Part shown: in pieces, positions 1,731 to 52,660 of the stretch
How positions within the stretch are numbered: position 1 is the first letter of the stretch
Layout: each line of letters opens with the position of its first letter
Assembly: GCF_963921235.1 (NCBI RefSeq)
Contig: NC_086108.1
Coordinates: 49,292,001-49,356,000, forward strand
Direction: 5' to 3'
DNA from: Mobula hypostoma
Lineage: Eukaryota
Length of the DNA stretch: 64,000 nt
Program-made: the position numbers and the translations under genes
The notes under the pieces: model-generated
Databases searched by the model: none
The model's input: only the letters and a program-made list of their open reading frames with translations
Told to the model about the DNA's origin: nothing

Positions 1731-4580
1731 GATAACTTGTTGATTGCAGAGCTGTGGACAATGAAGAGCTTGCCACAACTATCCAAGACTCTGGTACTTT
1801 GCAGATGATGCGCTGTGGATTGGTGACTGAGTGACAATCGGTATGATATGACATGTCCAGCTTTATGTGAACAGGCCTTGACCACATCTAATGCACTCAG
1901 TATTATCAAGTGGAGTGAACTAAATTGGTTGAAAACTGGCTTTTCTGGTGGTAAGAGGTCCTGGGAGGCAGCTCAACAGGAATATTTTCTTGTGCATGTG
2001 GCTAAATGTGATTGAGAGTGCTTTAGCTTTGTCTTTAGTACTTGCCTTGTGGGCCATGTCTTCATTCATGATGGAGATGTTCCTGGAACTGTACTTCTCT
2101 TTCAACTAGTTATGAAAGGGCTATAGAAATGTGATCTGGCCCATTAATATGAGATTTCTTTGTTGTTAAATATTGGAGGCTTTATTTTAAGCGTGCTTGT
2201 AGTCCCTATATTGTAGCTTCAGCAGATTGACACCTCATTTTCAGCGTGCCTTTTTGCTCCTCTTTGAACTGGAACTGAACCCATTGACACAGTAATTGTA
2301 GAGCAAGGGACATTGCGAGTTGTGTAGTTACAATTTGTAGTGGTGTACATTTTTGCCACTAATAGTCTACAATGTTTCATAGGAGCCTAAGCTGCTAAAT
2401 CTATTGGTCTGAACAAGAGATTTTGCAGTGGGCCATTTCTACCTATGCTGATATGAAGAAATACACCCAGTAAGGGTAGATTGGCAATGGCAAGGTCATG
2501 TAGGTATCACTATTGTTGACTTGCTCACTAACTTCCAACTAGCACTGTTACAAATGTGTCCTTTGGGGCTTGGCAAACATTCACTGATGGTGCTAATTTG
2601 AAATGCAACCCCCCCCCCCGAGAATATCCTTTGTTCTTACTCTATTTTGTGCTGCTTGTAAGTATTTTAACCACTGAATCATCAATGGACAGTGGTGGTA
2701 TCAGGCCATTTCTTTACCCATGTTTGATTTGTTTCCATAGGACCTTGTAGCATTTGAATTCAGTGTTCAGGAAGACAGTGTAGAATTATCAGCATCTCTC
2801 TCGACCAAAATTGTGAGCAAAAATTAAAAAAAAATAGTTCTGTTCTGAAAGAGGGATTAAGAAATGACCTAATAAAACTTTCCTAAGGTTGGTTTTGATG
2901 GAGAGATCCTTTAAATAGAATTAAAGTCATTGGCAAAAGAAGTAGTAACAATGATAATTTTCACTCCCATGTACTTGTACATATGAAAATAAGCATGGAC
3001 TTGACTCTGAAAATTTGAACTATGGAAAAAGAGACAAATGCAAGATAGTTTTGTCATTTATAGTATGTTGTTTCTGGCAAGATTGGTGCTCTTCTATGAT
3101 AATGTCTTGGCAATGAGAATTGTCTAATGATGGTAGAGTTTGTTTACCTGATGAGAATCTAACTAACTGTGTTGACTAGAGCATCAAGCTTGCCTTGATT
3201 ATCATCAAATGGGATTTTAATTTTGTGCCTCAAATGGAAAGATGGTGGAAAGCTGATAGAAAGGGTGCTAGGCGTGTGCCTAATGCAGAACTTGATGCAC
3301 AGCAGCGGCATGGTTCTAAGCATGTCAGCACTTAAGGAAATGGCACAATTGCAGTCAGCCACATAGCCTCTTGTGCTTTAAGTTTTTATAATTGAAGGGA
3401 AGAAAGTGTGCATCGAATGAAGAGCTAGGATAAATTGGAGTTATATGTAGATGCAGAGACAGAAACTGAATTACAGAGAAGTATTGTGAAAGTGGAGAGG
3501 ATGGTGTCAAAGCAGAGGATAAGGAGTGAGGCTGGGCCTTTGCTGTTGGGTGACATCCAGGACTTCAATTTGCCTTCTGAATTAGAGCTTCATGAATAAC
3601 TGAGCTTAATTCCAGGAATAAATGACATATTGAGAAGGCTTATGATTGGGTATCAGTTTTTTGCCAATTTTGACAAATAGTGGAGTTGTAAAACTTGTCC
3701 AGCAATGTTTAGCAATTGAAAATTGGGATAGGTGTTGGATTTCTACTGCTCTAATGATAACACAAGTAATATACCTGTCGTGAAAAGTATTTATTTTTAG
3801 TCTCAGGCAAGTAATTGATATTTACTGTTTAACCTGATGTTCTTCAGAGCAAAATTTGTACATTGGTGTCTTTGAATCCTGTGTATTAAAGGATAACTTC
3901 AAAGGAAGGTAACCATGTCTGTTTTGCTTTTTCATTCCCATCCCCCTACAACCTCCAGCCCCAGACTGTGATACATATCACAGTTCACCTGCTTGCTCTG
4001 ATCTTCAATAAACAAAATGTTATTGAAATCTTTTTGAAGTGACTGCTTAATGTTTTCTGAAGTTCTTTAGAAACTGGTTGGGTGGGGTGTCAGTGTCACA
4101 TTTGGGAGTTGATAATTGAATGAAATGTAACTATAGAAATTAGTTCCTTGAAGGAATTATGCACACATTGTACTTTATATGAAATCAACTATATGATTGA
4201 GCTGATAAATGACCTTTGGATTTGAACAAGGATATTTCTTGCTAACACACCTTCTAGCATTCAAAGAACCCAATGTTATAGTTCTATTTAATTTATATTT
4301 AGGAATATTAAACTATATAACAGCAGAATGCATACCTTATCACAAAACAAGGGTACTTTTTCATTGCTACTTTTTCTCCTTCTCTCTATCTTGGCGTTTC
4401 TCCCACTTTCTGCACTCCCAGTGCTATAGATACCAGGTACTCTGACAAAATTTCCCTTTCTTCACACAGAGGACGGAATCACAAATTTTGGGAGGGTATT
4501 TGATCTTGTGGGAACACAGATGATGAACTTGAAGTGGTGCAGAACATTTGAGACTGGAAAGTAGCAGATCTCTTTAAGTA

Positions 4581-5353
4581 CAGTAGATTCTGGTTAATCA
4601 GGACACATCGGTACCAGTACCTTTTGGCCCAATTGCCCAAGTTTCCTGAAAATAGTTGAAAGATAAAGACGAATTACCATTTAACTGAGTAAAAATTTAT
4701 GTATTTAAATGAAATACAGAAGAAACTATAACACTACCAATACCTCTATAGCACTGTGTAACTGTACTAGGTCCCAATAGTTATTGACAGAGGGTATTCT
4801 CTTGCCATATTCTTTTCATTGACTGTAAATGAACAAAATCGACGCAGACATCCAGTACAAATGATGGACTGCCTTCATACAATGTTTTAGATAATTGCAT
4901 CCTCCAATCTTCAGTTTCACTGCAGCGTTCAAGATGATTGTCAATACCTTCATAATTCCTAACTTGGAAGTACTGAAATCATTTCACTTTCACTGAAGTC
5001 TGCTTCTGGTATCTTCAAGCCTGAATGCTTGAAACTATGGTGAGTGAAACAGTTCTGAATTGTCCTACTGCCTCATTTCTCACCAGCAATCAGTAATAAA
5101 AATTTTGAAAACAAGCACATACAACTGACGCTATTTAAAAATGATCATTCTAAGCATGGAGTAGTAACTAACAGCCACACAATTGAACGTGACTGACGTG
5201 AGTTAGAAACTGTTCGGCAACATTCACATGGCCCCAATTAAGTGGCATTATGCTCTAAAAAGGCTATTTCTTGGCATAGTTTTTGTTCTTTGAGTTGTCT
5301 CAAATAAATGGCAGCCACGATTAACCAATGGCCAAATTAACCAGAATCCACTG
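4581..5353. mobile_element. Non-autonomous TcMar/Tigger-pogo-like DNA transposon
   Basis: TIRs CAGTAGATTCTGGTTAAT ... ATTAACCAGAATCCACTG, flanked by TA at 4579-4580 and 5354-5355. No intact ORF. Confidence 0.8.
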
Positions 5354-5450
5354 TACATAATTTTTAAACATGACTAGTTGATTATAACACTTACTTCAAA
5401 TGCAGAGGCTCTGTAATATGTTTTGTCAAAGTTCTTACTGACTAATATAG

Positions 5451-8400
5451 AAGAGTATAAAAGGAGATCAGTTTTCTTTGGCGATTTGATCGAGGAATGA
5501 CTGCACAGAAGCGTGGATGTCAGTGAGTTAGACTGGCAGGAAGAGTTTTTAAAGGAGAGTTTTAAAAGCTTTATAGAGCGGGTGACAGAGTAGAGGTAGA
5601 CAGAGTAGGAGGGCTTTGGCTCAATGGGGCTTCGGCGATAATGGGTGTCAGATATGGGAAGTCTGGGAGACTCCCAACCTCCTAGATGGCCACATCTGTG
5701 CCAGGTGCGTCAAGATGCAGCTCCTTAGGGACCGCATTAGGGAACTGGAGATGCAGCTCGATGACCTTTGTCTGGTCAGGGAAGGTGAGGAGGTGATAGA
5801 GAGGAGCTATAGGCAAGTAGTTACACCGGGGCCTCGGGAGACAGATAAATGGGTAACAGTCAGGAGAGGGAAGGGCAAGGGTCAGATACTAGAGAGTACC
5901 CCTGTGGCTGTCCCCCTTAACGATAAGCACTCCTGTTTGAGTATTGTTGGGGGTATGGCCTACCTGGGGGAAGCAACAGTGACTGCGCCTCTGGTACAGA
6001 GTCTGGCCCTGTGGATCAGAAGGATAGGGAAAGGAAGAAAGCAGCAGTAATAGGGGACTCCATAGTTAGGGAGTCAGACAAGAGATTCTGTGGATGCAGG
6101 AAAGAAATGTGAATGATAGTTTGCCTCCCAGGTGCCAGGGTCCAGGATGTTTTTGATTGCGTCCACGATATCCTGGAGTGGGAAAGTGAACAGCCAGAAG
6201 TCATGGTACATATTGGTACCAATGACATAGCTAGGAAAAGGGAGGAGGTCCTGAAAACAGATTACAGGGAGTTAGGAAGAAAGTTGAGAAGCAGGACCTC
6301 AAAGGTAGTAGTCTTAGGATTGCTGCCTGTGCTACGCGGCAGTGAGTATAGGAATAGAATGAGGTGGGTGATAAATACGTGGCTGAGGGATGGAGCAGGG
6401 GATGGAGATTCAGATTTCTGGATCATTGCAACCTGTACAAAAAGGACGGGTTGTACTTGAATCCGAGGGAGACCAATATCCTGGCAGGGAGGTTTGCTAA
6501 GGCTGCTGGGGAGAGTTTAAACTAGAATTGCTGGGGAGCGGGAACCAAACAGAAGAGACGGAGGAAGGGGCTGTTGGCTCACAAATAGTGAAAGCTTGGA
6601 GACAGTACGAGAGGAAGGATAGGCAGGTGATGGAGAAGGGATGTCCTCAGACTGATGGTTTGAGATGTGTCTATTTTAATGCAAGGGGTATCATGAACAA
6701 AGCAGATGAGCTAAGACCATGGATCAGTACTAGGAGCTATGATGTTGTGGCCATTACAGAGACTTGGATAGCTCAGGGGCAGGAATGGTTACTCAGAGTG
6801 CCAGGCTTTAAATGTTTCAGAAAGGACAGGGAGGGAGGCAAAAGAGGTGGGGGCCTAGCACTGCTGATCAGAGGTGGTATCACGGCTGCAGAAAAGCAGG
6901 AGACATCTACTGAGGCTACGTCCACACTAGACCGGATAAATCCATAACTGAAGCTTTTTCTCTTTGTTTTGACCCTCTGTCCACACTGAAACGGCGTTTT
7001 CCTCCGGAGCTTTTCTAAAACATTCTCCAGAGTGTGTAAATCTGAAAACACTGGTTGGGTGGTGTAGCGTGTACGGGGTAACCGGAGCTTTTTAAAAACA
7101 CTGTCATGACGTGCTGGAACAGATGGTGGCGGCAGCATGGCATTTACCTCCTGCCGCGAGGTAATGTTGTTTATAGCGGTCGAGGATGTTGTATTTGGTT
7201 TGGCACGACTCCCAGTCCACGTTCTCCACTGCTTTGCTGACCTTGTAGTTGTTTGTAACTCGCAGAAGCAGCTCGACTTCATCGTCTGTCCAAACGAAGA
7301 AGTCCGGTCTGCTTTTTCCAGTGGAGGTTTTCTTTGCATTCCACGAAGACATTGTTGAAAACTTACTTTTGCTGTTGTTGTAGGTACTCTAGTTTTTGTC
7401 CGATGGAAGTAGCACAACGCCACCGCAGAAACAGAAATAGTATACCGTTTCCTCTTCGCTTGTTTTCTGTAGCTGTGTCCTGTGCATGCCCAGTAGGAGG
7501 ATATTCGCTCAAATACCCGTTTTAATGTGGATGGAGGTATTTTCAAAAACACCTGGTGTGGACGCCTATCGTTTTTACACGAAACCGACGTTTTCAAAAT
7601 TATCCGGTCTAGTGTGGATGTAGCCTGAGTCTCTGTGGGTGGAAGTTACAAACAAGAAGGGGTCAATAACTACTGGGTGTTTTTTTTTATAGACCACCCA
7701 TGAGTAACAGGGACATTGAAGAGCAGATAGGGAGACAGATTCTGGGGAGGTAATAATAACAATTTCCCAAATATTGATTGGCATCTTCCTTGAGCGAGGG
7801 GTTTAGATGGGGTGGAGTTTGTTAGGTGTGTTCAGGAAGGTTTCCTGACACAATATGTAGATAAGTCTACAAAAGGAGAGGCTGTACTTGATCTGGTATT
7901 GGGAAATGAACCTGATCAGGTGTCAGGTCTCTCAATGGGAGAATATTTTGGAGATGGTGATCACAAATTCTATCTCCTTTACCATAGCATTGGAGAGGGA
8001 TAGGAACAGATGTTAGGAAAGCATTTAATTGGAGTAAGCAGAAATATGAAGCTATCAGGCAGGAACTTGAAAGCATAAATTGGGAACAGATGTTCTAAGG
8101 GAAATGTATGGCAGAAATGTGGCAAATGTTCAGGGGTGTTTGTGGGACAGTCTGCATAGGTAGATTCCAGTGAGACAGGGAAAGGATGGTAGGGTACAGG
8201 AACTGTGGTGTACAAAGGCTGTTGTAAGTCTTGTCGAGAAGAAAAGAAAAGAAAAGCTTACGAAAGGTTCAAGAAACTAGGTAAAGATAGAGATCTAGAA
8301 GATTATAAGGCTAGCAGGAAGGAGCTTAAGAATGAAATTAGGAGAGCCAGAAGGGGCCATGAGAAGGCCTTGGCAAGCAGGATTAAGGAAAACCCCAAGG

Positions 8401-10083
8401 TTTTCTACAAGTATGTGGAGAGCAAGAGGATAAGACATGAGAGAATAGGACCAATCAAATGTGACAGTAGAAAAGTGCGTATGGAACCAGAGGAGATAGC
8501 AGAGGTACTTAATGAATACTTTGCTTCAGTATTCACTATGGAAAAGGATCTTGGCGATTGTAGGGATGACTTACAGCGGATTGAAAGCTTGAGCATATGG
8601 ACATTAAGAAAGAGTATGTGCTGGAGCTTTTGGAAAGCATCAAGTTGGATAAGCCTCCGGGACCGGATGAGATGTATCCCAGGCTACTATGGGAGGCAAG
8701 GAAGGGACCGCTGAGCCTCTGGCAATGACCTTTGCATCTTTGCCAGAGTAGTTGGTAAGTTGATGGAAAAGATTCTGAGAGGCAGGATTCATGAACATTT
8801 GGAGAGGCATAATACGATTAGGAATAGTCAGCATAGCTGTCAAAGGCAGCTCATGTCTTACGAGCCTGATTGAATTTTTTTGAGGATGTGACTAAATAAT
8901 TGATAAAAGTAGAGCAGTAGATGTAGTGTATATGGATTTCAGCAAGGCATTTGATAAGGTATCCCATACAAGGCTTATTGAGAGAATAAGGAGGTATGGG
9001 ATCCAAGGGAACCTTGCTTTGTGGATCCTGAACTGGTTTGCTTACAGAAGGCCAAGAGTGGTTGTAGATGGGTCATATTCTGCATGGAGGTCGGTGACCA
9101 GTGGAGTATCTCAGGGATCTGTTCTGGGACCCCTACTCTTAGTGATTTTTATAAATGACCCGGATGAGGAGGTGGAAGGATGTGTTAGTAATGTTGCTGA
9201 GCAAAGGTTGGGTGTGTTGTGGATAGTGTGGAGAGCTGTCGGAGGTTTCAGTGGGACATTGATAGGATGCAAAACTGGGCTGAGAAGTGGCAGATGAAGT
9301 TCAACCCGGATAAGTGTGAGGTGGTACATTTTGGTAGGTCAAGTATCATGGCAGAATATAGTATTAATGGTAAGACTCTTGGCAGTGTGAAGAATCAGAG
9401 GGATCTTGGGGTCCTAGTCTATAGACCACTCAAAGCTGCTGTGCAGGTTGACTCTGTAGTTAAGATGGCCTACGGTGCATTGGCCTTCATCAACGGTGGG
9501 ATTGAGTTTAAGAGCCGACAGGTAATGTTACAGCCATAGTAGGACCCTGGTCAGACCCCACTTGGAGTACTGCTCTCGGTTCTGGTCACCTCACTACAGG
9601 AAGGATGTGGAAACCATAGAAAGGGTGCAGAGGAGATTTACAGAGATGTTGCCTGGATTTGGGAACATGCCTTATTAGAATAGATTGAGTGAACTCGGCC
9701 TTTTCTCCTTGGAACGGTGGAGGATAAGAGGTGACCTGATAGAGGTGTATAAGATGATCAGAGGCATTGATCATGTGGATAGTCAGAGGCTTTTTCCCAG
9801 GGCTGAAATGGCTAACACAAGAGGACACAGTTTTAAGATGCTTGGAAGGAGGTACAGAGGAGATTTCAGGTGTAAGTTTTTTACACAGAGAGTGGTGAGT
9901 GCGTGGAATGGGTTGCCAGCAACGGTGGTGGAGGCAGATACGATAGGGTCTTTTAAGAGACTCATGGAGTTTAGAAAAATAGAGGGTTATGGGTAACCCT
10001 ATGTCATTTCTAAAGTAAGTACATGTTCAGCACAGCATTGTGGGCCGAAGGGCCTGTATTGTGCTATTGGTTTTCTGTTTCTA
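5451..10083 (+). mobile_element. Near-full-length decayed CR1-clade LINE (ORF1 with SGNH esterase; ORF2 APE endonuclease + RT)
   Basis: ORF1 pieces: CARCVKMQLLRDRIRELE, GDSIVR, VHIGTNDI. ORF2 pieces: YFNARGIMNK, VAITETW, YMDFSKAFDKV, GVSQGSVLGPLL, KWQMKFNPDKC. CR1-type 3' tail gggccgaagggcctgtattgtgct...ttcta. Many stops and frameshifts. Confidence 0.9.
6914..7625 (-). mobile_element. Non-autonomous PIF/Harbinger-like element with a Myb/SANT-like fragment, inserted in the CR1
   Basis: TIRs GGCTACGTCCACACTAGACCGGATAA / TTATCCGGTCTAGTGTGGATGTAGCC with 3-bp TSD TGA (6911-6913, 7626-7628). Removing it restores CR1 'STESLWVEV'. ORF 7104-7352 has WTDDEVELLL...VDWESCQTKY. Confidence 0.85.
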
Positions 10084-22309: not shown

Positions 22310-22475
22310 GGAAGGAGGAAGTTTCTGGTGTCGTCTTCCTTTCCAATCCTGAAGAAGGGTCTCGGCTCGAAATGTTGACTGTTTATTAATTTCCATGGAT
22401 GCTGACTGACCTGAGTTCCTCCAGCATTTTGTGTGTGTTGCTCTGGATTTCCAGTATCTGCAGACCTTCTCATGT
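22310..22475 (+). mobile_element. Solo Penelope-like terminal fragment with hammerhead-like core
   Basis: aatc-CTGAAGA-agggtctcggctc-GAAA-tgtt-gact at 22345-22380, followed by the PLE terminal sequence (gatgctg...gagttcctccagcattttgtgtgtgttgct...atctgcaga). Confidence 0.75.
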
Positions 22476-23381
22476 TTATGATTTATTGCCATTCATGATG
22501 TTAGGTTTTGCCTTATAGGACGTAGTGGCTTGAAACCCTGTCAGAGCAGACATACATCTGATTCCTTCTATAACTTCAGTCAGAATTTTTTTTTTTTGTC
22601 CTTAAAATGGCCTTTTGTAAGTCGTACCTAGATTGCTTGTTTAATTTTGGATCACCAGTCTTGAATGCCAGAGATCTAGCCTTCAGCAGACCATGGATCT
22701 CCTCATTAGTCCATTGGTTTTGGTTGGGTATATTGGGTATGTTCTCAAAGACACACACTCATCCATATAGGCCTTGTTGATGTCAGTGACAACTTTGGTG
22801 TTTTCGTTCAGATTTGAAGATGAATCCCTGAATGTTGACCGATCCACCAACTTAAAGCAGTAGTGCAAGCGCTGCATCACCTCCCTTGACTGTACCTTCT
22901 CGGTATTCACCACTGGTGCTGCAGTCTTTAGTTTGCTGCCTGTACGCTGGAAGTAGAAGTACAGCCACCTGATCAGACTTCCTAAAGTGTGTGCATGGGG
23001 TGCTATGGTAAGCATTCTTGATGGTGGGATAACAATAGTCACGTGTGGTTCCACATGTGATATGTTAGCGGTGGTAGTTCAAAGATTTCTACAAGCTGGC
23101 CTGGTTGAAATTCTCCACAATGATAGGGGAAAGCATCAGAATGCAACGTTCGTGACTGTTGATTACGGTGCTTAGCTCCTACAGATGCTCTCTGACATTT
23201 GGCCTGAGGTGGAATGTACATCACCAGAAGATGATGATGAAAAACTCCCTCAGCAGATAAAATGGATGACACTTGACTGCTAGATGTTTCAGGTTAGGTG
23301 AGCAGTACTGAGACAGAACCACCATGTCTTTGTACCACGATGAGTTAACCATAAATCATACTCCACCTTCTACGCCTTTAA

Positions 23382-30077: not shown

Positions 30078-33000
30078 TTACATTAAATGAAAATATCGAA
30101 TAAAAGGTCCCCAAATCTGTTCAAATTTAAATGAAGAATCATAAAGGTTACTTCTAATTTTCTCCAAATTCAAACATAAAATCGTCTGAGAGAACCAAAA
30201 AAAGGTAGTTGGAGCATTAAGCTCTTTCCAATGTTGTAAAATTCATCTTTTCGCCATTAAAGTAAGAAATGCAATCATTCTACGGGCTGAAGGGGAAAGA
30301 TTACTAGAAATTTTAGGTAGTCCAAAGATAGCAGTAATAGGGTGAGGAGAGATATCTATATTTAATACCTTAGAAATAATATTGAAAATATCTCTCCAAA
30401 AAGTTTCCAAAGTAGGGCAAGACCAAAACATATGAGTTAAAGAGGCTATCTGCCCCGAACATCTATCACAGAAAGGATTAATATGCGAGTAAAAACGCGC
30501 TAACTTATCTTTGGACATATGTGCTCTATGAACCACTTTAAATTGAATTAGGGAATGTTTAGCACAAATAGAGGAAGTATTAACTAATTGTAAAATCTGC
30601 CCCCAATCATCCACAGAAATGGTAAGCCCCAATTCCTGTTCCCAATCTACCCTAATCTTATCAAATGGAGCTTTCCTAAGTTTCATAATAATATTATAAA
30701 TCATAGCCGATGCACCTTTCTGACATGGATTAAGGTTAATTATCGAATCTAAAATATATGTAGGAGGAAGCATTGGAAAGGAAGAAAGTATAGTACTTAG
30801 GAAATTTCTAACTTGTAAATATCTAAAAAAATGTATTCTTGATAAGTTATATTTATTGGATAGTTGTTCAAAAGACATAAGGGAACCATCTAAAAATAAA
30901 TCCAAAAACCGTAAAATACCCTTAGTCTTCCAAGTTTGAAAAGCGCGATCCGTAAAAGAGGGAGGAAAAAATATGTTACCTAAAATAGGAATCGCTAACC
31001 CGAATTGATTAAGATCAAAAAATTTTCTGAATTGAAACCAAATGCGCAAAGCATATTTAACTATTGGGTTAGAGACCTGCTTAAGACGTTTCGAATCAAA
31101 AGGGAGAGAGGAGCCTAAAATAGAACCAAGTGTATAACCCTGAACTGATTGTAATTCCAATGCTACCCATTTAGGAATAGATAGTATGTCCTGGTCAAGT
31201 AACCAAAATTTCATATGTCGAATATTAATAGCCCAATAATAGAATCTAAAGTTAGGTAATGCTAAACCTCCATCTCTCTTAGCTTTCTGTAAATGTATTT
31301 TACCCAGTCTCGGATTCTTATTCTGCCAAATAAATGAAGAAATTTTAGAGTCAACTTTATCAAAAAAAGATTTAGGAACGAAAATTGGTAATGCCTGAAA
31401 CACATATAAAAATTTTGGCAAAAAGAACATCTTAACTGCATTAATACGACCAATCAAAGTTAAATATAAGGGAAACCATTTAGATGAAAGTTGAGTAATA
31501 TGGTCAATTAATGGTAAAAAGTTAGTCTTAAATAAATCTTTGTATTTACAAGTAATTTTAATCCCAAGATATGAAAAGTAATTATTAATCAATTTAAATG
31601 GAAATTTATAATATAAGGGAAGATGTTTATTAATCGGAAAAAGTTCACTCTTACTAAGATTTAATTTATAACCTGAGAAAAGACCAAATTGTGCTAATAA
31701 CTCTAAAACAGCAGGAATGGATCTCTCAGGATTAGAAATATATAAAAGTAAATCATCAGCATAGAGTGATAATTTATGGGACTTTAATCCCCGAGTTATC
31801 CCAGTAATATTTGAAGATTTTCGAATAGCAATTGCAAGAGGTTCTAATGCAATATCAAATAATAGGGGACTAAGAGGACAGCCTTGTCGAGTACCATGAA
31901 AGAGAGGAAAAAAAGGTGAGTTTAAAGAGTTAGTACGAACCGAGGCTACAGGGGAGTGATATAACAGTTTAATCCAGGATATAAATTTCAAGCTAAAATT
32001 AAACATTTCAAGCACCTTAAATAAATAAGGCCATTCTACTCTATCAAAAGCTTTCTCGGCATCTAAAGAAATAACACACTCAGGAACATTTTGTGAGGGA
32101 GTATAAACGATATTTAACAATGTACGAATATTATAAAAAGAGTAACGACCTTTAATAAAACCCGTTTGGTCTTTCGAAATAATAGAAGGAAGTACTTTTT
32201 CTAGTCTATTTGCTAATAACTTAGAAAAAACTTTAGAATCAACATTTAATAAAGATATTGGTCTATAAGATGCACATTGAGCAGGGTCTTTATCCTTCTT
32301 TAGTATTAGAGAAATTGATGCTCTATTAAAAGATTCAGGAAGTTTACCAAGTTTCAAAGAAGCCTCAAAAACCCTACAGAGCCAAGGAATCAATAAAGAA
32401 GCAAAACATTTATAAAATTCAACGGTAAACCCATCAGGGCCAGGAGCTTTCCCCAGATTCATAGAAAAAATAACATTCTTAATCTCATCCATTGTAATGG
32501 AAGTATCTAATAAAGAAGACATATCCTGTGAAATCTGAGGGAAGTTTAACTTATCTAAAAAATCATTCATATATTTAGAATCTCGAGGAGACTCTGATTG
32601 ATATAAAGAAGAATAAAAATCACAAAAGGTTTGATTAATCCCCACATGATCCAGTATCAATCGATCATTTTGGTTATAAATCTGATTGATTTGAGATTTA
32701 ACATAATTAGATTTCAATTGATTAGCCAGCAGCTTGCCAATTTTGTCACTGTGAACATAAAAGTCACTTCTTGTTTTCTTTAATTGGTTTACAATCGAGG
32801 ACGAGAGTAATAAACTGTGTTCCATTTGAAGTTCAGTTCTTTGTTTGTATAACTCCTCAGAAGGAGCCATAACATATTTCTTATCAATTTCTTTGATCTT
32901 GTCCACAATTGCCATCTCCTCCTGCTTCTGTTTCTTCCTCAAAGCAACAGAATACGAAATAATCTGACCCCGAATATAGGCTTTAAAAGTGTCCCAAAGA

Positions 33001-33854
33001 GTGTTAACCGAAATATCTTCTGTATGGTTAATTGTAAAAAAAAGCTCAATCTGTTCATTCATAAAATTAACAAAGTCCGAGTCCTGAAGCAACAGCGAAT
33101 TAAAACGCCATTGTCTATTATTTGGTATATTGGCCATAATTTTAATAGAAAGCTTAAGTGGAGCATGATCCGAAATGGTTATAGAATCATAATCACATTT
33201 AATCACTGAAGGAATAAGACGAGAATCAATGAAAAAATAATCAATTCTTGAATAGGAATGATGAACATGTGAAAAGAAGGAAAAATCTTTTTCCTGAGGA
33301 TGCAGAAAACGCCAAATGTCCGTCGACCCAGAATCAGAAAGGAAAAAATTAATCAGATTTGCAGATTTATTAGGTAAAGTCCGTAAAGGAGCCGAACGGT
33401 CCAAAGCTGGAGACAAACAGGTATTAAGATCTCCGCCCCAAATCAATGAAAACTCGTTCAAATTCGGAAACTGATCAAACAATGATTTATAAAATTCCGG
33501 ACAATCCATATTAGGAGCATAAACATTAACCAAAACTACTTTTTTATTAAATAGTAAACCACTAACCAATAAAAATCTACCATTCGGATCAGAGATAATA
33601 TCCTGTTGTATAAAAGTAACTGAGGAATCTATAAAAATAGAGACGCCTCGAATCTTAGCATTGGAGTTCGAATGAAATTGTTGTCCCTTCCAGAATTTGA
33701 AAAAACGTAGTCTGTCCCCCCTCCGTACATGGGTCTCTTGTAAAAATAAAATTTGTGCTTTAAGTCTCCGGAACACTTTAAAAACTTTTTTCCTTTTAAT
33801 AGGATGATTAAGACCATTAGTATTCCAGGAGACAAAATTAATAATAGACTCCAT
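30078..33854 (-). pseudogene. L1 ORF2p (APE endonuclease, RT, CCHC) with one premature TGA at 30243-30245
   Basis: SWNTNGLN, FLQETH, SRIDYF, SDHAP, KAPGPDGF, LDAEKAFDRV, GTRQGCPLSPLLF, YADD, CDRC...HMFWSC. The frame continues past the TGA with a typical L1 C-terminus to TAA at 30078-30080. Likely ATG at 33852-33854. Confidence 0.9.
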
Positions 33855-34578
33855 AAATCCTAAAGTCAACCCACAACAAGGAGGATTGACGATAGGCGCG
33901 ACCCACAAACCCGGAGAGGAAACAGAACATACAAAAGATACCGGGAAAAAGGACGCAACCAGTACTTCAATAATGTATATAGCCCAAAGAGAAACAAACT
34001 AAAACGTGAAGCCCCTCCCACCACCTGCCGCCCCAAGACCCCAAGGCAAAATCTAAAGCAGACCCGCCAGAAAGAAGCAAGCCCTAAAACTACCCCCATG
34101 ACTTCCGGTATACGCTCCCTAAAAAAAAAGGTATAAATATGAAAAGGATCAGCTAATTGTAAAACAGTAAAAAAGTAAATAAAAAAAAAGTTAGCTCAAT
34201 TAAAATACCCACAGAACAGAACAAAAGCCGGAAAATATATATTAAAAAAAAACCACAATAAACCTCAAACCCATGAATAGACACAGCAACAAGAAAAAAT
34301 AGGATTATTGACATAAAGTGGTTATAAAAAGCAAGACAGAATAAAATTTAAAAAAAAACTACAAAATTTAAGGCCACACAGGAAATACGTAAGATGACAA
34401 AAGGGAAGTAACCACCCAGAATCCCCTGGGAAAAGAAAGAAATGACGCAGTTAAAAAGAAAGTTTAGCGACCATATTAAGAAATCAAAAATAAACTTTTC
34501 TGCCCAGATAGGGCACGAAAAAGTTAAAACCAACCAATTCACAGCCTCCGATCAACGGAGATCATTAAAAAAAGGCAA

Positions 34579-35478
34579 TTAAGATGTTGAAGATGAAAGT
34601 TGATCCAGATAACTCTGGGCATCCGATGGAGAATCAAAAAAACGAAGGGCTCCATCTGACATGCGAATCCTTAGACGTGCAGGGTACAGCAGCGCTGGTC
34701 TTAAATCCATCTTATAGAATTCCGACATCACGGATCTGTAACGAACCCGTTGGTCCCAGATTGGTTTACTGAAATCTTCCACGAATCGGAACTTAAGATC
34801 CGAAAAATCAATGAAACCTTTAGATCGAGCGAATCGAAACAGTCTCTCCTTGTCTTGAAAATAATGAAAACGTAAAATAACATGCCTAGGTCTATCTGAC
34901 CTAGACGAATATGATGGGATTCTGTGAACACGATCCAGAAGCGGTGGTTGGTCAGGAAATACAGTAGGGAATGCATCTTTTAAAAGTTGAGAAAAATATT
35001 TCATGGGGTTGTTGGATTCCACGGCTTCCCTCACCCCGATCATTCGTAAATTCTGCCGTCGCATTCTAGATTCCAAGTCAGAGTTTTTAAAAGTCAAAAA
35101 GTCAAGTTTCTTCTTCATTACATTAATTGTTTCTTCGATTTTCCCCATCTTAAGCTCACTTTGTTGCGCGAATTTTTGAAGATCAGATATAGCCGACTGA
35201 TGTTCCGCAATAAATGTTTGCATCTTATCCATTGAATCGGCAATTTTCTGGAAATTAGTTGAGATTTCGGTCTGAATCAGGTCTTTAACAGAGCCTGCAA
35301 TTTCCGTACGAATCATCTCCCTAACAGAGGTTGAAATTTCCCTCTGAATTAACTCCGATATCGCTTTCAAAGTCACCGGTGATTCAGTCGGAGGGAAATC
35401 CGTAGCTTTCGGTTTAACCGGAAGTTTACCATCCTTGCCGTTTTTCCCGTTCTTAGACATAGCAGATCTAAGTATCAT
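34579..35478 (-). CDS. L1 ORF1p (coiled coil + RRM + CTD, Transposase_22-like), intact
   Basis: DLESRMRRQNLRMIGVRE, DRVHR, RPRHVILRFH, LLYPARLRI. The true start may be MSKNG (35460). Confidence 0.92.
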   Translation of the reverse strand: MILRSAMSKNGKNGKDGKLPVKPKATDFPPTESPVTLKAISELIQREISTSVREMIRTEIAGSVKDLIQTEISTNFQKIADSMDKMQTFIAEHQSAISDLQKFAQQSELKMGKIEETINVMKKKLDFLTFKNSDLESRMRRQNLRMIGVREAVESNNPMKYFSQLLKDAFPTVFPDQPPLLDRVHRIPSYSSRSDRPRHVILRFHYFQDKERLFRFARSKGFIDFSDLKFRFVEDFSKPIWDQRVRYRSVMSEFYKMDLRPALLYPARLRIRMSDGALRFFDSPSDAQSYLDQLSSSTS

Positions 35479-36057
35479 CCAATTGTCGGAGAATTCAGTT
35501 TAATTCAAAGTATTGTAAGAATTGATGCCTTAATGGTTAATTAAAGTATAGCTGACCATAGAGAAAAAAAACTCAGAGGTAATGGAGCGAGTCAAGAACG
35601 CGACTTCACTCCATGAGCGCTACCGGAAGTCTCCCTGGATTTTGTATCCTTGTGGAGATTATTCCTCCCCCGGTTCATTCACAGGGTGCATTAACGTTAT
35701 CAGCACAGGATGAGTATGTGATTTTTATGCTTTCAATTTGCTTTGCTTAGAAATTAGTGTTTCTACATATTACTTGGGTTGGGTGGAATGTTAATTATGA
35801 TGCAAATATAAATAATAGGTACAAAGCTACATCAGATTGATGATTTAGATTAGAACAGCACTGCAGATGTTGAAAACATAAAATTAAATAAAAGTTTGGA
35901 GCCATTAAGTATTTCAGTTAACACATTGGAGAGAAACTGAGCTCATGTTTCAGGTTAATGACTTGTGGGCAGCAAGGTCCTTGATCTGAAATCAATTTGT
36001 TGTAATTCAAGAGGAAGACAATTTGACACATGTTTCTGTATGAATTACTGCCTAAAT

Positions 36058-37749: not shown

Positions 37750-39314
37750 CAGGTTTTCCCCCGCCATCCGAAGGTAGAGCGTTCCTATGAAACGGTTCAT
37801 AAGCCGAAATGTTATAAAGCGAAGAAGCAATTACCATATATTTATATGGGACAATTTTGTGAGCGTTCGCAAACCCAAAAATAACCTACCAGATCATGCA
37901 AAATAACACATAAAACCTAAAATAACAGTAACATACAGTAAAAGCCGGAATGATATGATAAATACACAGCCTATATAAAGTAGAAATACTTTTCCACAAT
38001 CATTACTGAACTGTTCTCCGTAGCGAAACTCTCACGCAAGCGCCGTCGGCAGAAAATCTCATGCAAGCGCTGTTGGCAAAAACACGCGCAAGCGCTCTCC
38101 AGTAACCTTTAAGCTATGAAGCTGCCAAATCATACCAAATAACCCGTAAAAATACACAACCGACATAAAGTAGAAATAATGTATGTACAGTGTAGTATCA
38201 CTTACCAGAACTGGTTCAGCGCCGAGCACACTGATGATGGTGTGTTAGGCTGAGTCGTTGGAGTTTGGGTGGTGCAGTGGCCCCCCCACCCTCCAGGCTG
38301 CTGAGCGATACATTGCCGCGAAGAACGCAGGGGTCCAGCAGTAGCCGGGAGGTACACAGCACATCTTTAAGAAAAGAGCAGAAACGAACATGCTAATTAA
38401 TTAGGTGCCGCCCATAATTGTCGGCCCAGATCAGTGCCGATTTCTGATTGCGTCGTCTCTGATCTGGGCCGACAATTACATGTCGGTGGCACCTAATTAA
38501 TTAGCATGTTTATTTCGGCTTTTTTCTTAAAGATGTGCTGTGTGCCTCCCAGTTACCTTTGCATTCTCCGTGAATCGGTATCTATCCTTGGCCTGGGGGT
38601 TGGAGTGGTGGGACACTGGGGTGTCATCTCATCGCCTGTTTCCATTAGAATAGGCAGCTCATCTTGTCCTATGACTGCTCACCTCGAGGTTCGTCATCTG
38701 CTGTGGCTGATGTGGAAGGCTTGCTTGACTGCTGAGCCTCGCGCATTTTTCTATCACACAGTTCTTTAATAAGGACTCAACCCATCTTGCAAATATCTCC
38801 TAAACTGACGTACCCTTTCAAAATTAAAGTCGTACTTTATCATTACTCATTCGGTTTCGATTGTTATCCTTTTTTCTTCCATTGCATCAGCTCTTCATCT
38901 GTCAGTTCTTGGTGATGGGATGCCAAAACCTCTTCAACATCATCTTCGTCAACTTCCACAAGCCAAACTCACGTTGTTCTTACTTCGTTCACCACGATCA
39001 AAACACTTAATTATGTCTAGTTTTACCGTAAGTGTAACACCCTTATGAGCTGTTTCAGGCTTTTCTGATACCATAGAACTCATCTTGCAAACGGCTGCTC
39101 AAGGGCTCGTGTTTAAGCAATACCGGCGAGAATCCGGGGGAGAGCGGCTGCTCGGGGCGCGCTGCCTTTTATCGTGCGCTGATTTTTTCACGCGCTGAAT
39201 TTTTTTTTCGTAACAGTGAAAACACCTTCTGAAAGCGAAAATAGGGTACTAATGTAGGTCTTTCGTAACAGTGAGGTTTCGTAAAGCGAACGTTTGAAAA
39301 GCGGGGGACACCTG
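37750..39314. mobile_element. Non-autonomous Tigger/pogo-like element, inserted in a PLE-terminus remnant
   Basis: CAGGTTTTCCCCCGC ... GCGGGGGACACCTG ends with TA at 37748-37749 and 39315-39316. Repeated subterminal taaagcgaa motifs. The flanks rejoin as ctgagta|tctccaacattttctgt. Confidence 0.8.
38275..38618. repeat. Fold-back (long inverted repeat), hAT-like MITE inside the Tigger-like element
   Basis: Arms at about 38347-38434 and 38459-38550 are near-perfect reverse complements. Outer ends resemble CAGTGG.CCCC(A)ACC. Confidence 0.75.
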
Positions 39315-40514: not shown

Positions 40515-40735
40515 AATTTCAAATGCTTTTGAGGCTACCCAGATGGAATATAAGGGGTTGCTTTTCCAACCGGAGGGTTGCCTCATCGTGACAGTAGTTG
40601 AGGCCATGGGCTAGCATGGAATTAAAATGGGTAGCCACTGAAAGATCCCACTTTTTCTGGCAAACGGAGAGTAGGTGCTCGGCAAAGCAGTTTCCCAATC
40701 TGCGATGGGTCTTACCGATATACAGGAGGTTTCTA
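40515..40735 (-). mobile_element. Penelope-like element GIY-YIG endonuclease fragment
   Basis: LLYIGKTHRRLGNCFAEHLLSV...VATHFN, matching the PLE at 49415-50536. Confidence 0.8.
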
Positions 40736-40939: not shown

Positions 40940-42750
40940 TAAGTTAGTTTAAATGATTGTTCATATTATATGTAGTGGTAGACATTTTAGGAGGATCTTT
41001 GAAGAAGAGAAGAATCCACCTATGGATAATCAGTAAAGATGAAGGTGGTAAACGAATGAACATAGAATGATACAAAAATATGTCAGCTGATTTGACTTTA
41101 TTTATTTATTTATAAAAGGAAAGAATGACTAATTAAATAAGGGTGGGGAAAAAGCAATGTACATCTGGCCATAGACGTATAGATAGGAAGAATTCCTATG
41201 AATACTTTATCCAAAAAAAAGGAAGCACTGATAAAGTGAGTGTTGGTGTGTGAAAAATTAGTCTGTAATGTTATTAATGGAAATCAAAAAGATCGGATGA
41301 AGATTGGAGAATTCATGTAATACTGTATGTCAGAAATTAATTGAGAAAAAGTTATGAAAGTTACGGGAGTGATACTGAATAAATTGTTGGAGTTTTGGGG
41401 GTAAGTCTGGGTCCTCATGAATGACATCTTCTCATCTTAAAGTAGGGTTTCTTTAGATGGTAAAATAGCAAACGTGGCTATTTTATTCAAAAAGGAAGAG
41501 AATCAGAAAGCAAAAAAAAAATTGAGTCAGCTGGTTGGCATTTGTCATAGGGGAATGTTTGAAGCTATCATTAAAGACTTTAGTTCAAAATTTTGGTCAA
41601 TGCCCTGGCATAATTCGGCAATCCCAACATAGTTTTGTGAAAGTGCTGAGAATAAAAGGGAATTAGTTGATGCAGTATGCTTAGGTTTTTAAACAGCTTT
41701 TGTTGAGGTAGAGAATAAATTATTATTGTATAACAGGTAACATATGGTGGAGAAAATCTGCAGTTGCTGGAAATTCAAGTTACGCGCACACAATGCTGCA
41801 GGAACTCACCAGGCCAGGCACAGCGTCTGTGGAAAAGAGTACATCCTGACGAAGGATCTCAGCCCAAAATGTTGACTGTACTCTTTTCCATAGGTGCTGC
41901 CTGGCCTGTTGAATTCCTCCAGCATATGTTAGAAGGTTGGCTGGCTAGTGGGAAATAGAACAAGTATTTGTTGGTAATAAGAGGTATGCCCTAGGGATGA
42001 GTACAGTGGTTTCATCATAAGTGACTTGGATGAAGGCATTGAAAGCATGATTGTAAAATCTACTGATGACATAATAAGCATTTTGCCTCAATGGTGAGAG
42101 ACTGCAGAGTGTTAATGGAGAGAAATCTGGTATCCATGCACATAGTTTGCAAACAAAAAAGTACTTTGCACATGATACATGTAATTAGGAAAGGTAACGC
42201 AATTTTATTGTGAATTGTGAAATGAATTGAATACATAAGTTGGGAAGAATTTTACTCATTTACATTGCTGACCTCACAATCTGGAGCACTGTATATAATA
42301 CAGGCCTCCTTAATTGAGGAAGAGTGTAAACCTATTTGGAAGCTGTGCAGAGAAGGTTCGTCATACTGTTAGTGGAATGGCGAGTTGCCTTAAGAGGAAA
42401 AATTGGATAGGCCTGGCTAGAATTTGCTGAAGGTTAGAAAACAGGTGATTTGATTGAAATAGTCTAGAGCACATTGTCAAGTGGAGAGGTTCTTGTGGGA
42501 GATTATGGAGCTGGGGGTCACCTATTTAAGCCATAAATTTATGTTTGAGTTTGGAACCTTTGGTGGTGGAAGCAAAGTCTTTTAACGCTAAGTGGATGTA
42601 GATACATTCTTAATATGCAAAAGAATGGAAGATTAACCTTGGGTATGCAGGAATTTAGTGTTGTGGCTACAATCAAAGCGGTTGTGATTATCATTTTAAA
42701 TGAATATTGGAGGGCTGGGTGACCTATACCAGCTGCTAAATGGTATGTTT
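40940..42750 (+). mobile_element. Highly decayed CR1 LINE
   Basis: Scattered CR1 ORF2 remnants (IANV..LFKK, gtgacttggatgaagg, tgcagagaaggttc) and a degenerate tail. Confidence 0.5.
41753..41925. mobile_element. Inverted pair of PLE termini with a central hammerhead-like core
   Basis: Arm atgctgcaggaactcaccaggccaggc...ggaaaagagtaca pairs with tgtactcttttcc...gcctggcctgttgaattcctccagcat. Between them lies CTGACGA-aggatctcagccc-AAAA-tgtt-gact. Confidence 0.75.
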
Positions 42751-48905: not shown

Positions 48906-49020
48906 ATACATCAGATAAACTCTATGTGGTAGAAACATTGTCGGGGCGTGAGTGGCTGAGACAACTAAAACTTGATTGGAGATCCATTCCCTGCAATAGA
49001 GCCAACTGAAATTGAATTGA

Positions 49021-50536
49021 CGCAACATACATCAAAGTTGCTGGTGAACGCAGCAGGCCAAGCAGCATCTCTAGGAAGAGGTGCAGTCGACGTTTCAGGC
49101 CGAGACCCTTCGTCAGGACTAACTGAAGGAAGAGTGAGTAAGGGATTTGAAAGTTGGAGGGGGAGGGGGAGATCCAAAATGATAGGAGAAGACAGGAGGG
49201 GGAGGGATAGAGCCGAGAGCTGGACAGGTGATAGGCAAAAGGGGATACGAGAGGATCATGGGACAGGAGGTCCGGGAAGAAAGACAAGGGGGGGTGTGAC
49301 CCAGAGGATGGACAAGAGGTTATTCAGAGGGACAGAGGGAGAAAAAGGAGAGTGAGAGAAAGAATGTGTGCATAAAAATAAGTAACAGATGGGGTACGAG
49401 GGGGAGGTGGGGCCTTAGCGGAAGTTAGAGAAGTCGATGTTCATGCCATCAGGTTGGAGGCTACCCAGACGGAATATAAGGTGTTGTTCCTCCAACCTGA
49501 GTGTGGCTTCATCTTTACAGTACAGGAGGCCGTGGATAGACATGTCAGAATGGGAATGGGATGTGGAATTAAAATGTGTGGCCACTGGGAGATCCTGCTT
49601 TCTCTGGCGGACAGAGCGTAGATGTTCAGCAAAGCGGTCTCCCAGTCTGCGTCGGATCTCACCAATATATAAAAGGCCACAACGGGAGCACCGGACGCAG
49701 TATATCACCCCAGTCGACTCACAGGTGAAGTGATGCCTCACCTGGAAGGACTGTTTGGGGCCCTGAATGGTGGTAAGGGAGGAAGTGTAAGGGCATGTGT
49801 AGCACTTGTTCCGCTTACACGGATAAGTGCCAGGAGGGAGATCAGTGGGGAGGGATGGGGGGACGAATGGACAAGGGAGTTGTGTAGGGAGCGATCCCTG
49901 CGGAATGCAGAGGGGAGGGGAGGGAAAGATGTGCTTAGTGGTGGGATCCCATTGGAGGTGGCGGAAGTTACGGAGAATAATATGTTGGACCCGGAGGCTG
50001 GTGGGGTGGTAGGTGAGGACCAGGGGAACCCTATTCCTAGTGGGATGGTGGGAGGATGGAGTGAGAGCAGATGTACGTGAAATGGGGGAGATGCGTTTAA
50101 GAGCAGAGTTGATAGTGGAGGAAGGGAAGCCCCTTTCTTTAAAAAAGGAAGACATCTCCCTCGTCCTAGAATGAAAAGCCTCATCCTGAGAGCAGATGCG
50201 GCGGAGACGGAGGAATTGCGAGAAGGGGATGGCGTTTTTGCAAGAGACAGGGTGAGAAGAGGAATAGTCCAGATAGCTGTGAGAGTCAGTAGGCTTATAG
50301 TAGACATCAGTGGATAAGCTGTCTCCAGAGACAGAGACAGAAAGATCTAGAAAGGGGAGGGAGGTGTGGGAAATGGACCAGGTAAACTTGAGGGCAGGGT
50401 GAAAGTTGGAGGCAAAGTTAATAAAGTCAACAAGTTCTGCATGCGTGCAGGAAGCAGCGCCAATGCAGTCGTCGATGTAGCGAAGGAAAAGTGGGGGACA
50501 GATACCAGAATAGGCACGGAACATAGATTGTTCCAC
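49021..50536 (-). mobile_element. Penelope-like retroelement, 5'-truncated (RT C-terminus + GIY-YIG endonuclease + 3' terminal region)
   Basis: RYIDD, LPFLD, YYKPTDSHSYLDYSSSHP, VIYCVRCSRCGLLYIGE, ATHFN. 12-bp TSD AAATTGAATTGA at 49009-49020 and 50537-50548. Confidence 0.93.
49085..49120 (-). ncRNA. Minimal type I hammerhead ribozyme motif in the PLE 3' region
   Basis: Minus strand reads AGTC-CTGACGA-AGGGTCTCGGCCT-GAAA-CG-TC-GACT. Both catalytic boxes, helix I (AGTC/GACT), helix II and a GUC cleavage triplet are present. Confidence 0.8.
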
Positions 50537-51351: not shown

Positions 51352-51858
51352 AAATGGTGATGTCAGACACTGTACTCACACATTGTGATCCACATTGTCC
51401 AGTGCGTCTTCCCTGTGACGCCTCGCCTTATGGTACAGATGCAGTCAAGTCACATGTTATGAGTGATGGAAGTGAACGCCCCATAGCCTTTGCATCACAT
51501 TCCCTTACTGCTGCAGAGAAAAAATACGCAGAGTTTGGTCTGGGGTGTAAAATGTTTCAACCAGTACTTGTATGGGAGAGTGTTTACTTTCATTAATGAT
51601 AATCAACGGCTAGTGTCCATTTTCAGTCCCCAGAAAGCTGTACTATTAACAGCAGCAGCACAAATACAGAGATGGGTTATTTTCTTGGAGGTCACAATTA
51701 CTAGATCAAATTCGAGAGGATGGCTAATCATGGAAATGCTGATGTATTATCCCATTTACCCTTGGACACTCCTCTTGACATTTACTCCCTAATGTAAATC
51801 AAAGGACTCCCTATAAAGACAGATGTTCCAGAGGGAAACCAGAAAAGAACCCACACTG

Positions 51859-51973
51859 ACACGAGGAATTCTGCAGATGCTGGAAATTCAAGCAACACAC
51901 ATCAAAGTTGCTGAGTCCTGACGAAGGGTCTCAGCCCGAAACGTCGATTGTACCTCTTCCTAGAGATGCTGCC
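51859..51973. mobile_element. 115-bp PLE-derived mini-insertion carrying a hammerhead motif (+ strand, 51914-51949)
   Basis: TSD AAGAACCCACACTG at 51845-51858 and 51974-51987. Core AGTC-CTGACGA-AGGGTCTCAGCCC-GAAA-CG-TC-GATT. Confidence 0.85.
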
Positions 51974-52660
51974 AAGAACCCACACTGTCTCAGTCTACAT
52001 GGGGCTGGAGTATGCCAGTAGAAATTCCAGTTTCCCCATTTTTACCAGCGCTGGAATGAATTTGCTATTGATATAAGTTGCCTTATGTAGGGATTGAGAG
52101 TTGTACCATTCAGACTGCGAGCTAAATTGTTGGAGGAGCTATGTGCTGGTCATCCAGGGGTGTGGTCAGAATGAAAGCATTAGCTCAGTCTGCTGGCCTG
52201 TGCTAGATGAGCAGATTGAACAACTATTCGAGATGCCAGCACGTACAGACGAAACGTGTCCAGAGCTGTCAGAACCAGTTTCTACGGTCTCAGAGTCAAC
52301 TCCTACAACCACCATGGAGGAGGCCCCAAAATATGAGATTGTTTCACAGCCACATGTCTCACCTGCCAGGCAGAATGACCTCCGGTCAGGAAAGACGTTA
52401 TCCTTCAAGAGTACAAAGTCCTCCACAGCAATCAAATCTTCAGGCCAATTGGACAATTTAAAGTTTACTCTGCTGTGGATGTGTATATAGTAGTTATATT
52501 ATCTCATATATTGAGTATATGGTTGAGTTGCATTCTGCACAGAGTTGGAGTTTATAGCAGAGCAGGGAGGAGTTATGTGTATTTAATATTTGAGTAATAT
52601 TGTGAATATATTGTTTGATTAAAGCATTTGTTGTTCATTTAAATAATTCATTACAAGTTG

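What the first reader, a model, noticed from the sequence alone, without database searches (positions are those of the whole stretch)
49021..49420. Intact minimal hammerhead ribozyme about 300 nt downstream of the Penelope-like ORF
Seen: AGUC-CUGACGA-helix II-GAAA-CG-UC/GACU in the sense orientation of the PLE. Helix III is reduced to the palindromic ACGU. Known: PLE termini carry minimal type I hammerheads proposed to cleave as dimers. Inference: a self-cleaving RNA processing signal. At least four recognisable copies in 64 kb imply very high genomic abundance.
Basis: partly seen in the sequence, partly recalled or inferred. Interest (0 to 1): 0.7.

Follow-up and report, generated by a model that had tools for sequence, protein, structure and literature searches.

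The report
Penelope retrotransposon hammerhead, orphan copy
This is a real copy of the tiny "hammerhead" self-cutting RNA motif already known from Penelope-type jumping genes, sitting at the end of a cut-short copy that is likely inactive, one of tens of thousands in what is likely a shark or ray genome, and the copies' ends suggest they were mostly made from RNA that had not been cut there.

Summary
The motif is real: minus strand 49121-49084, predicted cut 49089/49088, 326 nt after the stop codon. It ends a 5'-truncated Penelope-like element (50536-49021, 12-bp target-site duplication) that has no start codon and one hammerhead. The class is published (Cervera 2014; Frangieh 2024), and this scan noted it before in at least 22 other genomes. 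The genome holds 91,306 copies with intact core boxes. A complete relative (L064) has a hammerhead in each repeat, 3,512 nt apart, the first 138 nt before the ATG. Insertions do not end at the cut: 3' ends lie 57-76 or 101-117 nt beyond it (94 of 96), and 91 of 96 5' ends lie upstream of it. Against this, junctions at the cut are 3.6 times a nearby control, partly through microhomology. No compensatory covariation. One detail is atypical: 38,871 exact copies, this one included, have U where the usual G10.1-C11.1 pair has C (6,605 copies). Cleavage is untested. New member of a known kind; low interest.

The parts
49084..49121 (-). Minimal type I hammerhead motif: helix I 5' strand 49121-49117, CUGACGA 49116-49110, extra A 49109, helix II 49108-49097 (G.U, G-C, G-C, U.G; loop CUCG), GAAA-CG-U-C 49096-49089, helix I 3' strand 49088-49084
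   Evidence: Sequence; passes descriptor, 0 hits in 5 shuffles
49088..49089 (-). Predicted cleavage bond, after GUC (not tested)
   Evidence: Sequence and hammerhead numbering in PMC4209133
49097..49097 (-). U at position 11.1 instead of the usual C; majority state of the family
   Evidence: 38,871 exact copies with T, 6,605 with C, 275 with A or G
49021..49088 (-). 68-nt tail past the cut; equals the start of the 5' UTR of the next unit; its end falls in the nearer of two 3'-end clusters (inferred reverse-transcription start)
49021..50536 (-). 5'-truncated Penelope-like insertion, 1,516 bp, 97% identical to the 3' part of complete copy L064
50537..50548 (-). Target-site duplication, upstream copy (12 bp)
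49009..49020 (-). Target-site duplication, downstream copy (12 bp)
49415..50536 (-). 3' part of the RT + GIY-YIG ORF (aa 643-1016 of L064); no start codon; YIDD at 50479-50468; about 18 codons (49914-49862) read in another frame than in most relatives
   Evidence: GIY-YIG only weakly by Pfam (E 0.026, below cut-off)
49793..49819 (-). CX4CxxC linker motif between RT and endonuclease (Neptune/Nematis type)
   Evidence: motif definition in PMC8557442
49122..49414 (-). Pyrimidine-rich 3' UTR part of the pseudo-LTR
51859..51973 (.). Separate short insertion of the same family: hammerhead piece on + (51914-51972, C at 11.1) joined to an inverted tail piece; 14-bp duplication at 51845-51858 and 51974-51987
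41799..41925 (+). Older fold-back copy with broken core (G12 to A)
22335..22480 (+). Older-family terminal copy with decayed core

Best explanation
The motif is the minimal hammerhead in the pseudo-LTR of a Penelope-like retrotransposon, carried here as a likely inactive passenger at the end of a 5'-truncated copy. Shown: the element, its target-site duplication, the layout of a complete relative (repeat-ORF-repeat, a hammerhead in each repeat), the copy numbers and the positions of insertion ends. Inferred: a complete tandem copy is transcribed through both repeats; the element's protein starts reverse transcription inside the RNA about 65 or 102 nt past the second hammerhead, so the cDNA runs through the uncut site and every new copy inherits the motif; most copies stop early, many at the motif's 5' border, often joined to an inverted piece. 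Inferred from published relatives: the hammerhead cuts weakly and only with help (a partner hammerhead pairing through ACGU, or the element's protein), in complete elements, and cutting is not the step that sets the ends of insertions. This copy has no second hammerhead of its own and no start codon, so it would cut only if a host transcript carried it and a partner were supplied.
For: Element bounds and 12-bp duplication. L064: ORF of 1,016 aa, hammerheads 3,512 nt apart, ATG 138 nt after the first cut, stop 323 nt before the second, repeats 96% alike; RVT_1 E 2e-5; 1,469 relatives at E<=1e-20 among 7,995 scored, most listed with RT family PF00078, best named ones from a shark at 68-72% identity. 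Of 96 tail-picked copies (99 rows, 3 dropped as misplaced or duplicate): 3' ends 54 at +57..+76 and 40 at +101..+117; 5' ends 91 upstream of the cut, 2 at it, 3 after it; 35 within -47..-21. Of 30 loci picked on the ORF start, 28 could be mapped: 24 run upstream past the cut, 4 start after it, 0 at it. Monomer fold pairs GACG of the core with CGUC (-12.2 kcal/mol, against -7.7 for helices I+II alone). PMC4209133: single minimal hammerhead inactive, dimers weak. PMC11167929: two internal start sites explain the 30-40 bp tail; cleavage needs protein; catalytic mutants still insert; no RNA reads end at the cut.
Against: Genome-wide, junctions exactly at the cut (783) are 3.6 times the +3 control (218) and above the -8 control (221 with a stricter prefix). 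Of the first 30 read, 4 were mutated whole motifs, 18 inversion joints (about 10 with GA/GAC microhomology by eye), 5 joined unrelated flank, 3 other, so a small share of cut templates is not excluded. Read-through of the site is equally expected from a cut and re-ligated circle. The core boxes are kept between old and young families, which argues that the motif does something. No cleavage or RNA-end data were obtained.
Confidence: 0.65

Rival explanations
1. The hammerheads cut the tandem transcript efficiently in vivo into a 3,512-nt unit that is ligated into a circle; reverse transcription starts inside the circle and runs past the re-formed site, giving more-than-unit copies (the model proposed in Cervera 2014).
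For: 24 of 28 mapped ORF-start copies run upstream past the cut, some by over 1 kb; both hammerheads of L064 are whole; modest excess of junctions at the cut.
Against: A circle does not by itself predict the pile-up of 5' ends at -47..-21 (35 of 96; 2,485 junctions at -32). In the one reconstituted relative, catalytic mutants inserted normally (PMC11167929). Linear tandem transcripts explain the same read-through.
Confidence: 0.2
2. In the youngest subfamilies the motif no longer cuts at all: U11.1 weakened helix II and the sequence is kept for another job (promoter, start site, splice acceptor or protein binding) or merely by recent descent.
For: U11.1 is 38,871 against 6,605 C; U groups are a little less diverged (mean 1.5-2.6 mismatches per 80 nt; n 37, 30, 17) than the C group (3.4; n 20); helix II falls from -5.1 to -2.5 kcal/mol. 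A pyrimidine run and CAG precede helix I; PMC4209133 maps an intron end to helix I in Drosophila.
Against: Only pairing-compatible bases spread (A or G at 11.1: 275 copies). PMC3088659 describes a natural hammerhead with even a U-U mismatch at 10.1-11.1. All other core bases are canonical. No G excess (cap mark) before the -32 junctions: 21 of the first 100. No splice joint at this place among the joints shown (313 not shown).
Confidence: 0.13
3. The motif is a chance match to a short consensus.
For: The loose pattern is at chance level in the window; Rfam finds nothing; folding z-score -0.35.
Against: Full descriptor 8 hits against 0 in 5 shuffles; same place and layout as published PLE hammerheads, including the extra base after A9 and the palindrome (PMC4209133); reversed-pattern controls 0.
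Confidence: 0.02

Closest known systems
Minimal hammerheads (min-HHR) in pLTRs of metazoan Penelope-like elements (Cervera and De la Pena 2014, PMC4209133; read parts 1-2 of 4 of the text, searched supplement file 2; file 1 could not be searched)
   Same: Type I, short helix I, extra base between 9 and 10.1, no loop 3, palindromic 15.2-16.2, one motif per flanking repeat, most copies single and truncated.
   Different: Helix II is 4 bp with two wobbles, not 6-8 bp; U at 11.1 in most copies; about 10 times more copies than the 4,000-9,000 reported for coelacanth and Xenopus (different search methods); no shark or ray name found in the supplement table searched.
PAc, Poseidon element of Anolis carolinensis (Frangieh et al. 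2024, PMC11167929; read parts 1-2 of 4)
   Same: Two preferred 3' ends about 35 nt apart, downstream of the hammerhead; insertions made from RNA that spans the site.
   Different: In PAc the ORF starts inside the hammerhead and the start sites lie in the ORF; here the ATG is 138 nt past the cut and both end clusters lie in the 5' UTR. This element has the Cys linker of the Neptune/Nematis type.
Neptune/Nematis-type EN+ Penelope-like elements (Craig et al. 2021, PMC8557442; passages only)
   Same: Single ORF RT-linker-GIY-YIG, CX2-5CxxC linker, partial tandems, inverted 5'-truncated pieces, 30-40 bp optional tail.
   Different: Clade not fixed by a tree here; 12-14 bp target-site duplications are clear in the two window copies checked.
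Non-LTR retrozymes (Li et al. 2026, 10.64898/2026.07.22.740005; part 1 of 5 and passages)
   Same: Type I hammerheads tied to PLE pLTRs; reported also in the one cartilaginous fish sampled.
   Different: Retrozymes are short head-to-tail tandem units without a protein; this copy is a truncated coding element with one motif.

Membership tests
Minimal PLE hammerhead | Core boxes CUGANGA and GAAA..UH | tested here: met
   CUGACGA, GAAA-CG-UC; descriptor hit
Minimal PLE hammerhead | Helix I closing the core (type I) | tested here: met
   4 Watson-Crick pairs plus one U.G
Minimal PLE hammerhead | Unpaired base between 9 and 10.1; palindromic 15.2-16.2 | tested here: met
   A at 49109; ACGU
Minimal PLE hammerhead | G10.1-C11.1 pair (described as highly conserved, not part of the published descriptor) | tested here: not met
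   U at 11.1; still pairs as G.U or A-U; the C form exists in the same family
Minimal PLE hammerhead | Located in both flanking repeats of a PLE | tested here: met
   L064 has one in each repeat; this truncated copy keeps only the 3' one
Minimal PLE hammerhead | Compensatory changes in the helices | tested here: inconclusive
   253 copies: none two-sided in helix II or III, 2 at the outer helix I pair; copies too closely related; no outgroup loci found
Active hammerhead ribozyme | Site-specific self-cleavage | not testable with these tools
   No assay; only contigs were available for RNA
EN+ Penelope-like element | Single ORF with RT followed by GIY-YIG endonuclease | tested here: met
   L064 1,016 aa; RVT_1 E 2e-5 and GIY-YIG E 0.026, both below Pfam cut-offs; homologues carry PF00078 and some PF01541
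EN+ Penelope-like element | Partial tandem repeats, inverted truncated pieces, optional tail | tested here: met
Neptune/Nematis type | CX2-5CxxC linker | tested here: met
   CKRNKCYTC
Neptune versus Nematis clade | Placement in an RT tree | not tested
   No clade-labelled reference set was at hand
Non-LTR retrozyme | At least two consecutive short tandem units with hammerheads, no coding region | tested here: not met
   Single motif after a coding fragment

The most novel reading that the evidence does not exclude
The most successful recent Penelope lineage in this genome spread to some 40,000 exact copies after trading the conserved G10.1-C11.1 pair for a weaker one, while its insertions run through the cut site and pile up at the motif's 5' border: a natural experiment in which a damped ribozyme goes with more transposition, with the motif serving as a start or end mark for the RNA rather than as its cutter.
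Probability: 0.2. Interest if true: 0.45.

Novelty: new member of a known kind. Interest (0 to 1): 0.22.

Why it matters
As one more copy of a published motif it matters little. The family is useful as test material: the role of hammerheads in Penelope-like elements is described as unclear (PMC8557442), and this genome offers young near-complete elements, two natural alleles at a conserved helix II pair, and tens of thousands of insertion ends that fit internal start of reverse transcription in a second PLE type. If these motifs cut at all, about 90,000 core-intact copies could affect host transcripts, but nothing here shows that they cut.

Tried and rejected
Rfam scan of the window: no hammerhead family at E<=1. 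My first guess, that U11.1 was a private CpG mutation of this copy, was wrong. RNA evidence: no RNA holder listed; four runs laid were contigs only, so no RNA start or end could be read; their loose ends at L064:4735 (-32), 4597-4602 and 4637-4638 match the insertion ends seen in DNA and probably come from transcribed or genomic copies. Cap-mark test at -32: G in 21 of the first 100, A 47, C 32 (counted by hand); many look like inversion microhomology or an older family, so a capped start was not supported. Apparent enrichment of the older subfamily among cut-site junctions also appears in the +3 control, so it was rejected as age bias. Outgroup loci for covariation: none confirmed in metagenome contigs. 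Splice acceptor before helix I: no matching joint among those shown. Papers on shark or ray PLE hammerheads: one search returned a single review in which 'shark' refers to the shape, another returned none; the library lacks most subscription papers and Repbase, and one supplement of PMC4209133 could not be searched, so absence from print is not established.

Full report
Observation. The minus strand at 49121-49084 reads helix I (UAGUC), CUGACGA, one extra A, a 4-pair helix II (GGGU-CUCG-GCCU), GAAA-CG-U-C and GACUG; the predicted cut is between 49089 and 49088. It lies in the sense of a 387-residue open frame ending at 49415; the cut is 326 nt after the stop. Four related copies are in the window; 2 of 4 pass a minimal-hammerhead descriptor, which gave 8 hits in 604 kb (54 arbitrary 10-kb stretches plus the window) and 0 in each of 5 shuffles. 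The loose pattern alone is at chance level, and Rfam reports no hammerhead.

The element. A 12-bp duplication at 50548-50537 and 49020-49009 bounds a 1,516-bp insertion. It starts inside the RT domain, just before YIDD, and ends 68 nt past the cut. It is 97% identical to the 3' part of L064, a complete copy: repeat, 1,016-aa ORF, repeat, with a hammerhead in each repeat, 3,512 nt cut to cut, the ATG 138 nt after the first cut and the stop 323 nt before the second. So the 'tail' after the motif is the 5' UTR of the next unit. Pfam support is weak (RVT_1 E 2e-5; GIY-YIG E 0.026; both below cut-off), but 1,469 of 7,995 scored proteins match at E<=1e-20, the closest named ones from a bamboo shark (68-72%); the host is therefore likely a cartilaginous fish. 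The CX4CxxC linker places it with the Neptune/Nematis type as defined in PMC8557442 (passages); no tree was built. The focal frame lacks residues 1-642, and about 18 codons are read in another frame than in most relatives.

Abundance. Exact 34-nt motif: 38,871 with T at 11.1, 6,605 with C, 275 with A or G. A pattern that fixes the core boxes and frees most of helix II finds 91,306; a tail pattern finds 78,402. All reversed controls are 0. In the arbitrary stretches, 6 of 45 tail-anchored copies were intact, and 41 of 81 among copies picked on an exact tail (this anchor missed some copies, including 3 of the 4 in the window).

The 11.1 base. PMC4209133 lists G10.1-C11.1 as highly conserved. Here the majority, 28 of 29 close relatives and both L064 motifs have U. 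It can pair as G.U (4 pairs, -2.5 kcal/mol) or with the extra A (3 pairs, -2.2), against -5.1 for C. Older families mostly have C, often with G12 changed to A, which fits an ancestral CpG, and U groups are slightly less diverged (small samples). So U is likely derived and fixed in recent masters. PMC3088659 (passage) reports a natural U-U at this pair, so U does not rule out cutting.

Do insertion ends show cutting? Among 96 copies picked on the tail alone (from the first 100 matches on contig C1; 99 rows, 3 dropped), 3' ends form two clusters, 54 at +57..+76 and 40 at +101..+117, with 2 others; 5' ends lie upstream of the cut in 91, at it in 2, after it in 3, with 35 in -47..-21. Among 30 loci picked on the ORF start, 28 mapped: 24 upstream, 4 downstream, 0 at the cut. 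This matches PMC11167929 (text parts 1-2): two internal start sites, uncut RNA as main template, protein-assisted cleavage, no RNA ends at the site. Against my reading: genome-wide junction patterns gave 783 at the cut, 218 at +3, 221 at -8 with a stricter prefix and 2,485 at -32. The first 30 cut-site loci were 4 mutated whole motifs, 18 inversion joints (about 10 with GA/GAC microhomology, by eye), 5 unrelated flanks and 3 others. Scaled for the prefix filter, about 1,400 of at least 78,000 copies (about 2%) could start at the cut; whether any of this is cleavage is open. A cut-and-ligated circle would also give read-through, and I cannot exclude it.

Structure tests. The monomer's best fold pairs GACG of the core with CGUC, not the hammerhead fold (-12.2 against -7.7 kcal/mol; z -0.35); the two-copy fold is also not the active dimer. 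Such programs do not score tertiary contacts. In 253 ungapped copies (pooled from all loci, some picked on the motif itself) there is no two-sided change in helix II or III and 2 at the outer helix I pair. This neither supports nor refutes the structure, since the copies come from few masters; an outgroup search found nothing. RNA runs were guesses and contigs only.

Comparison and verdict. It works like, and by layout belongs to, the minimal PLE hammerheads of Cervera and De la Pena 2014 (text parts 1-2; one supplement searched, one not), with one atypical pair. It is not a retrozyme (part 1, passages). Searches for shark or ray cases gave one irrelevant mention and no paper, within a limited library. 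The scan's own notes hold 76 findings with these words in at least 22 genomes; they are unchecked and gave me the lead on the 5' pile-up, which I confirmed as a cluster but without the cap mark (21 G in 100). Verdict: real, known class, likely inactive in this copy; new member of a known kind; interest 0.22.

Noticed in passing
window 30243-35499, minus strand: L1-type LINE with two long open frames: 306 aa (Transposase_22, E 7e-10) and 1,251 aa stop to stop (endonuclease, RT, zf-RVT); looks young and near intact.
   Followed up: partly
window 40528-40722, minus strand: Fragment of an older Penelope-like endonuclease region, 71% identical to the focal ORF.
   Followed up: no
window 38416-38477: Near-perfect 25-bp inverted repeat; weak mir-2329 match far below the family threshold (38.8 of 90 bits), probably a repeat-derived hairpin.
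   Followed up: no
window 49122-49135 and older copies: A pyrimidine run ending in CAG directly precedes helix I in young and old families; it could be a splice acceptor or an initiator-like start (initiator consensus recalled, not from a call).
   Followed up: partly
L031-L060, stretch before the Cys linker: The two C runs in this part of the ORF vary in length in about half of the young copies read, a frameshift hotspot; L064 also reads another frame there.
   Followed up: partly
G000:C1, first 7 Mb (one search list): Many hammerhead copies come as close minus/plus pairs, i.e. fold-back insertions that would form long hairpins if transcribed.
   Followed up: partly
window 6773-7645, minus strand: 290-aa open frame without a Pfam match at E<=0.001.
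   Followed up: no
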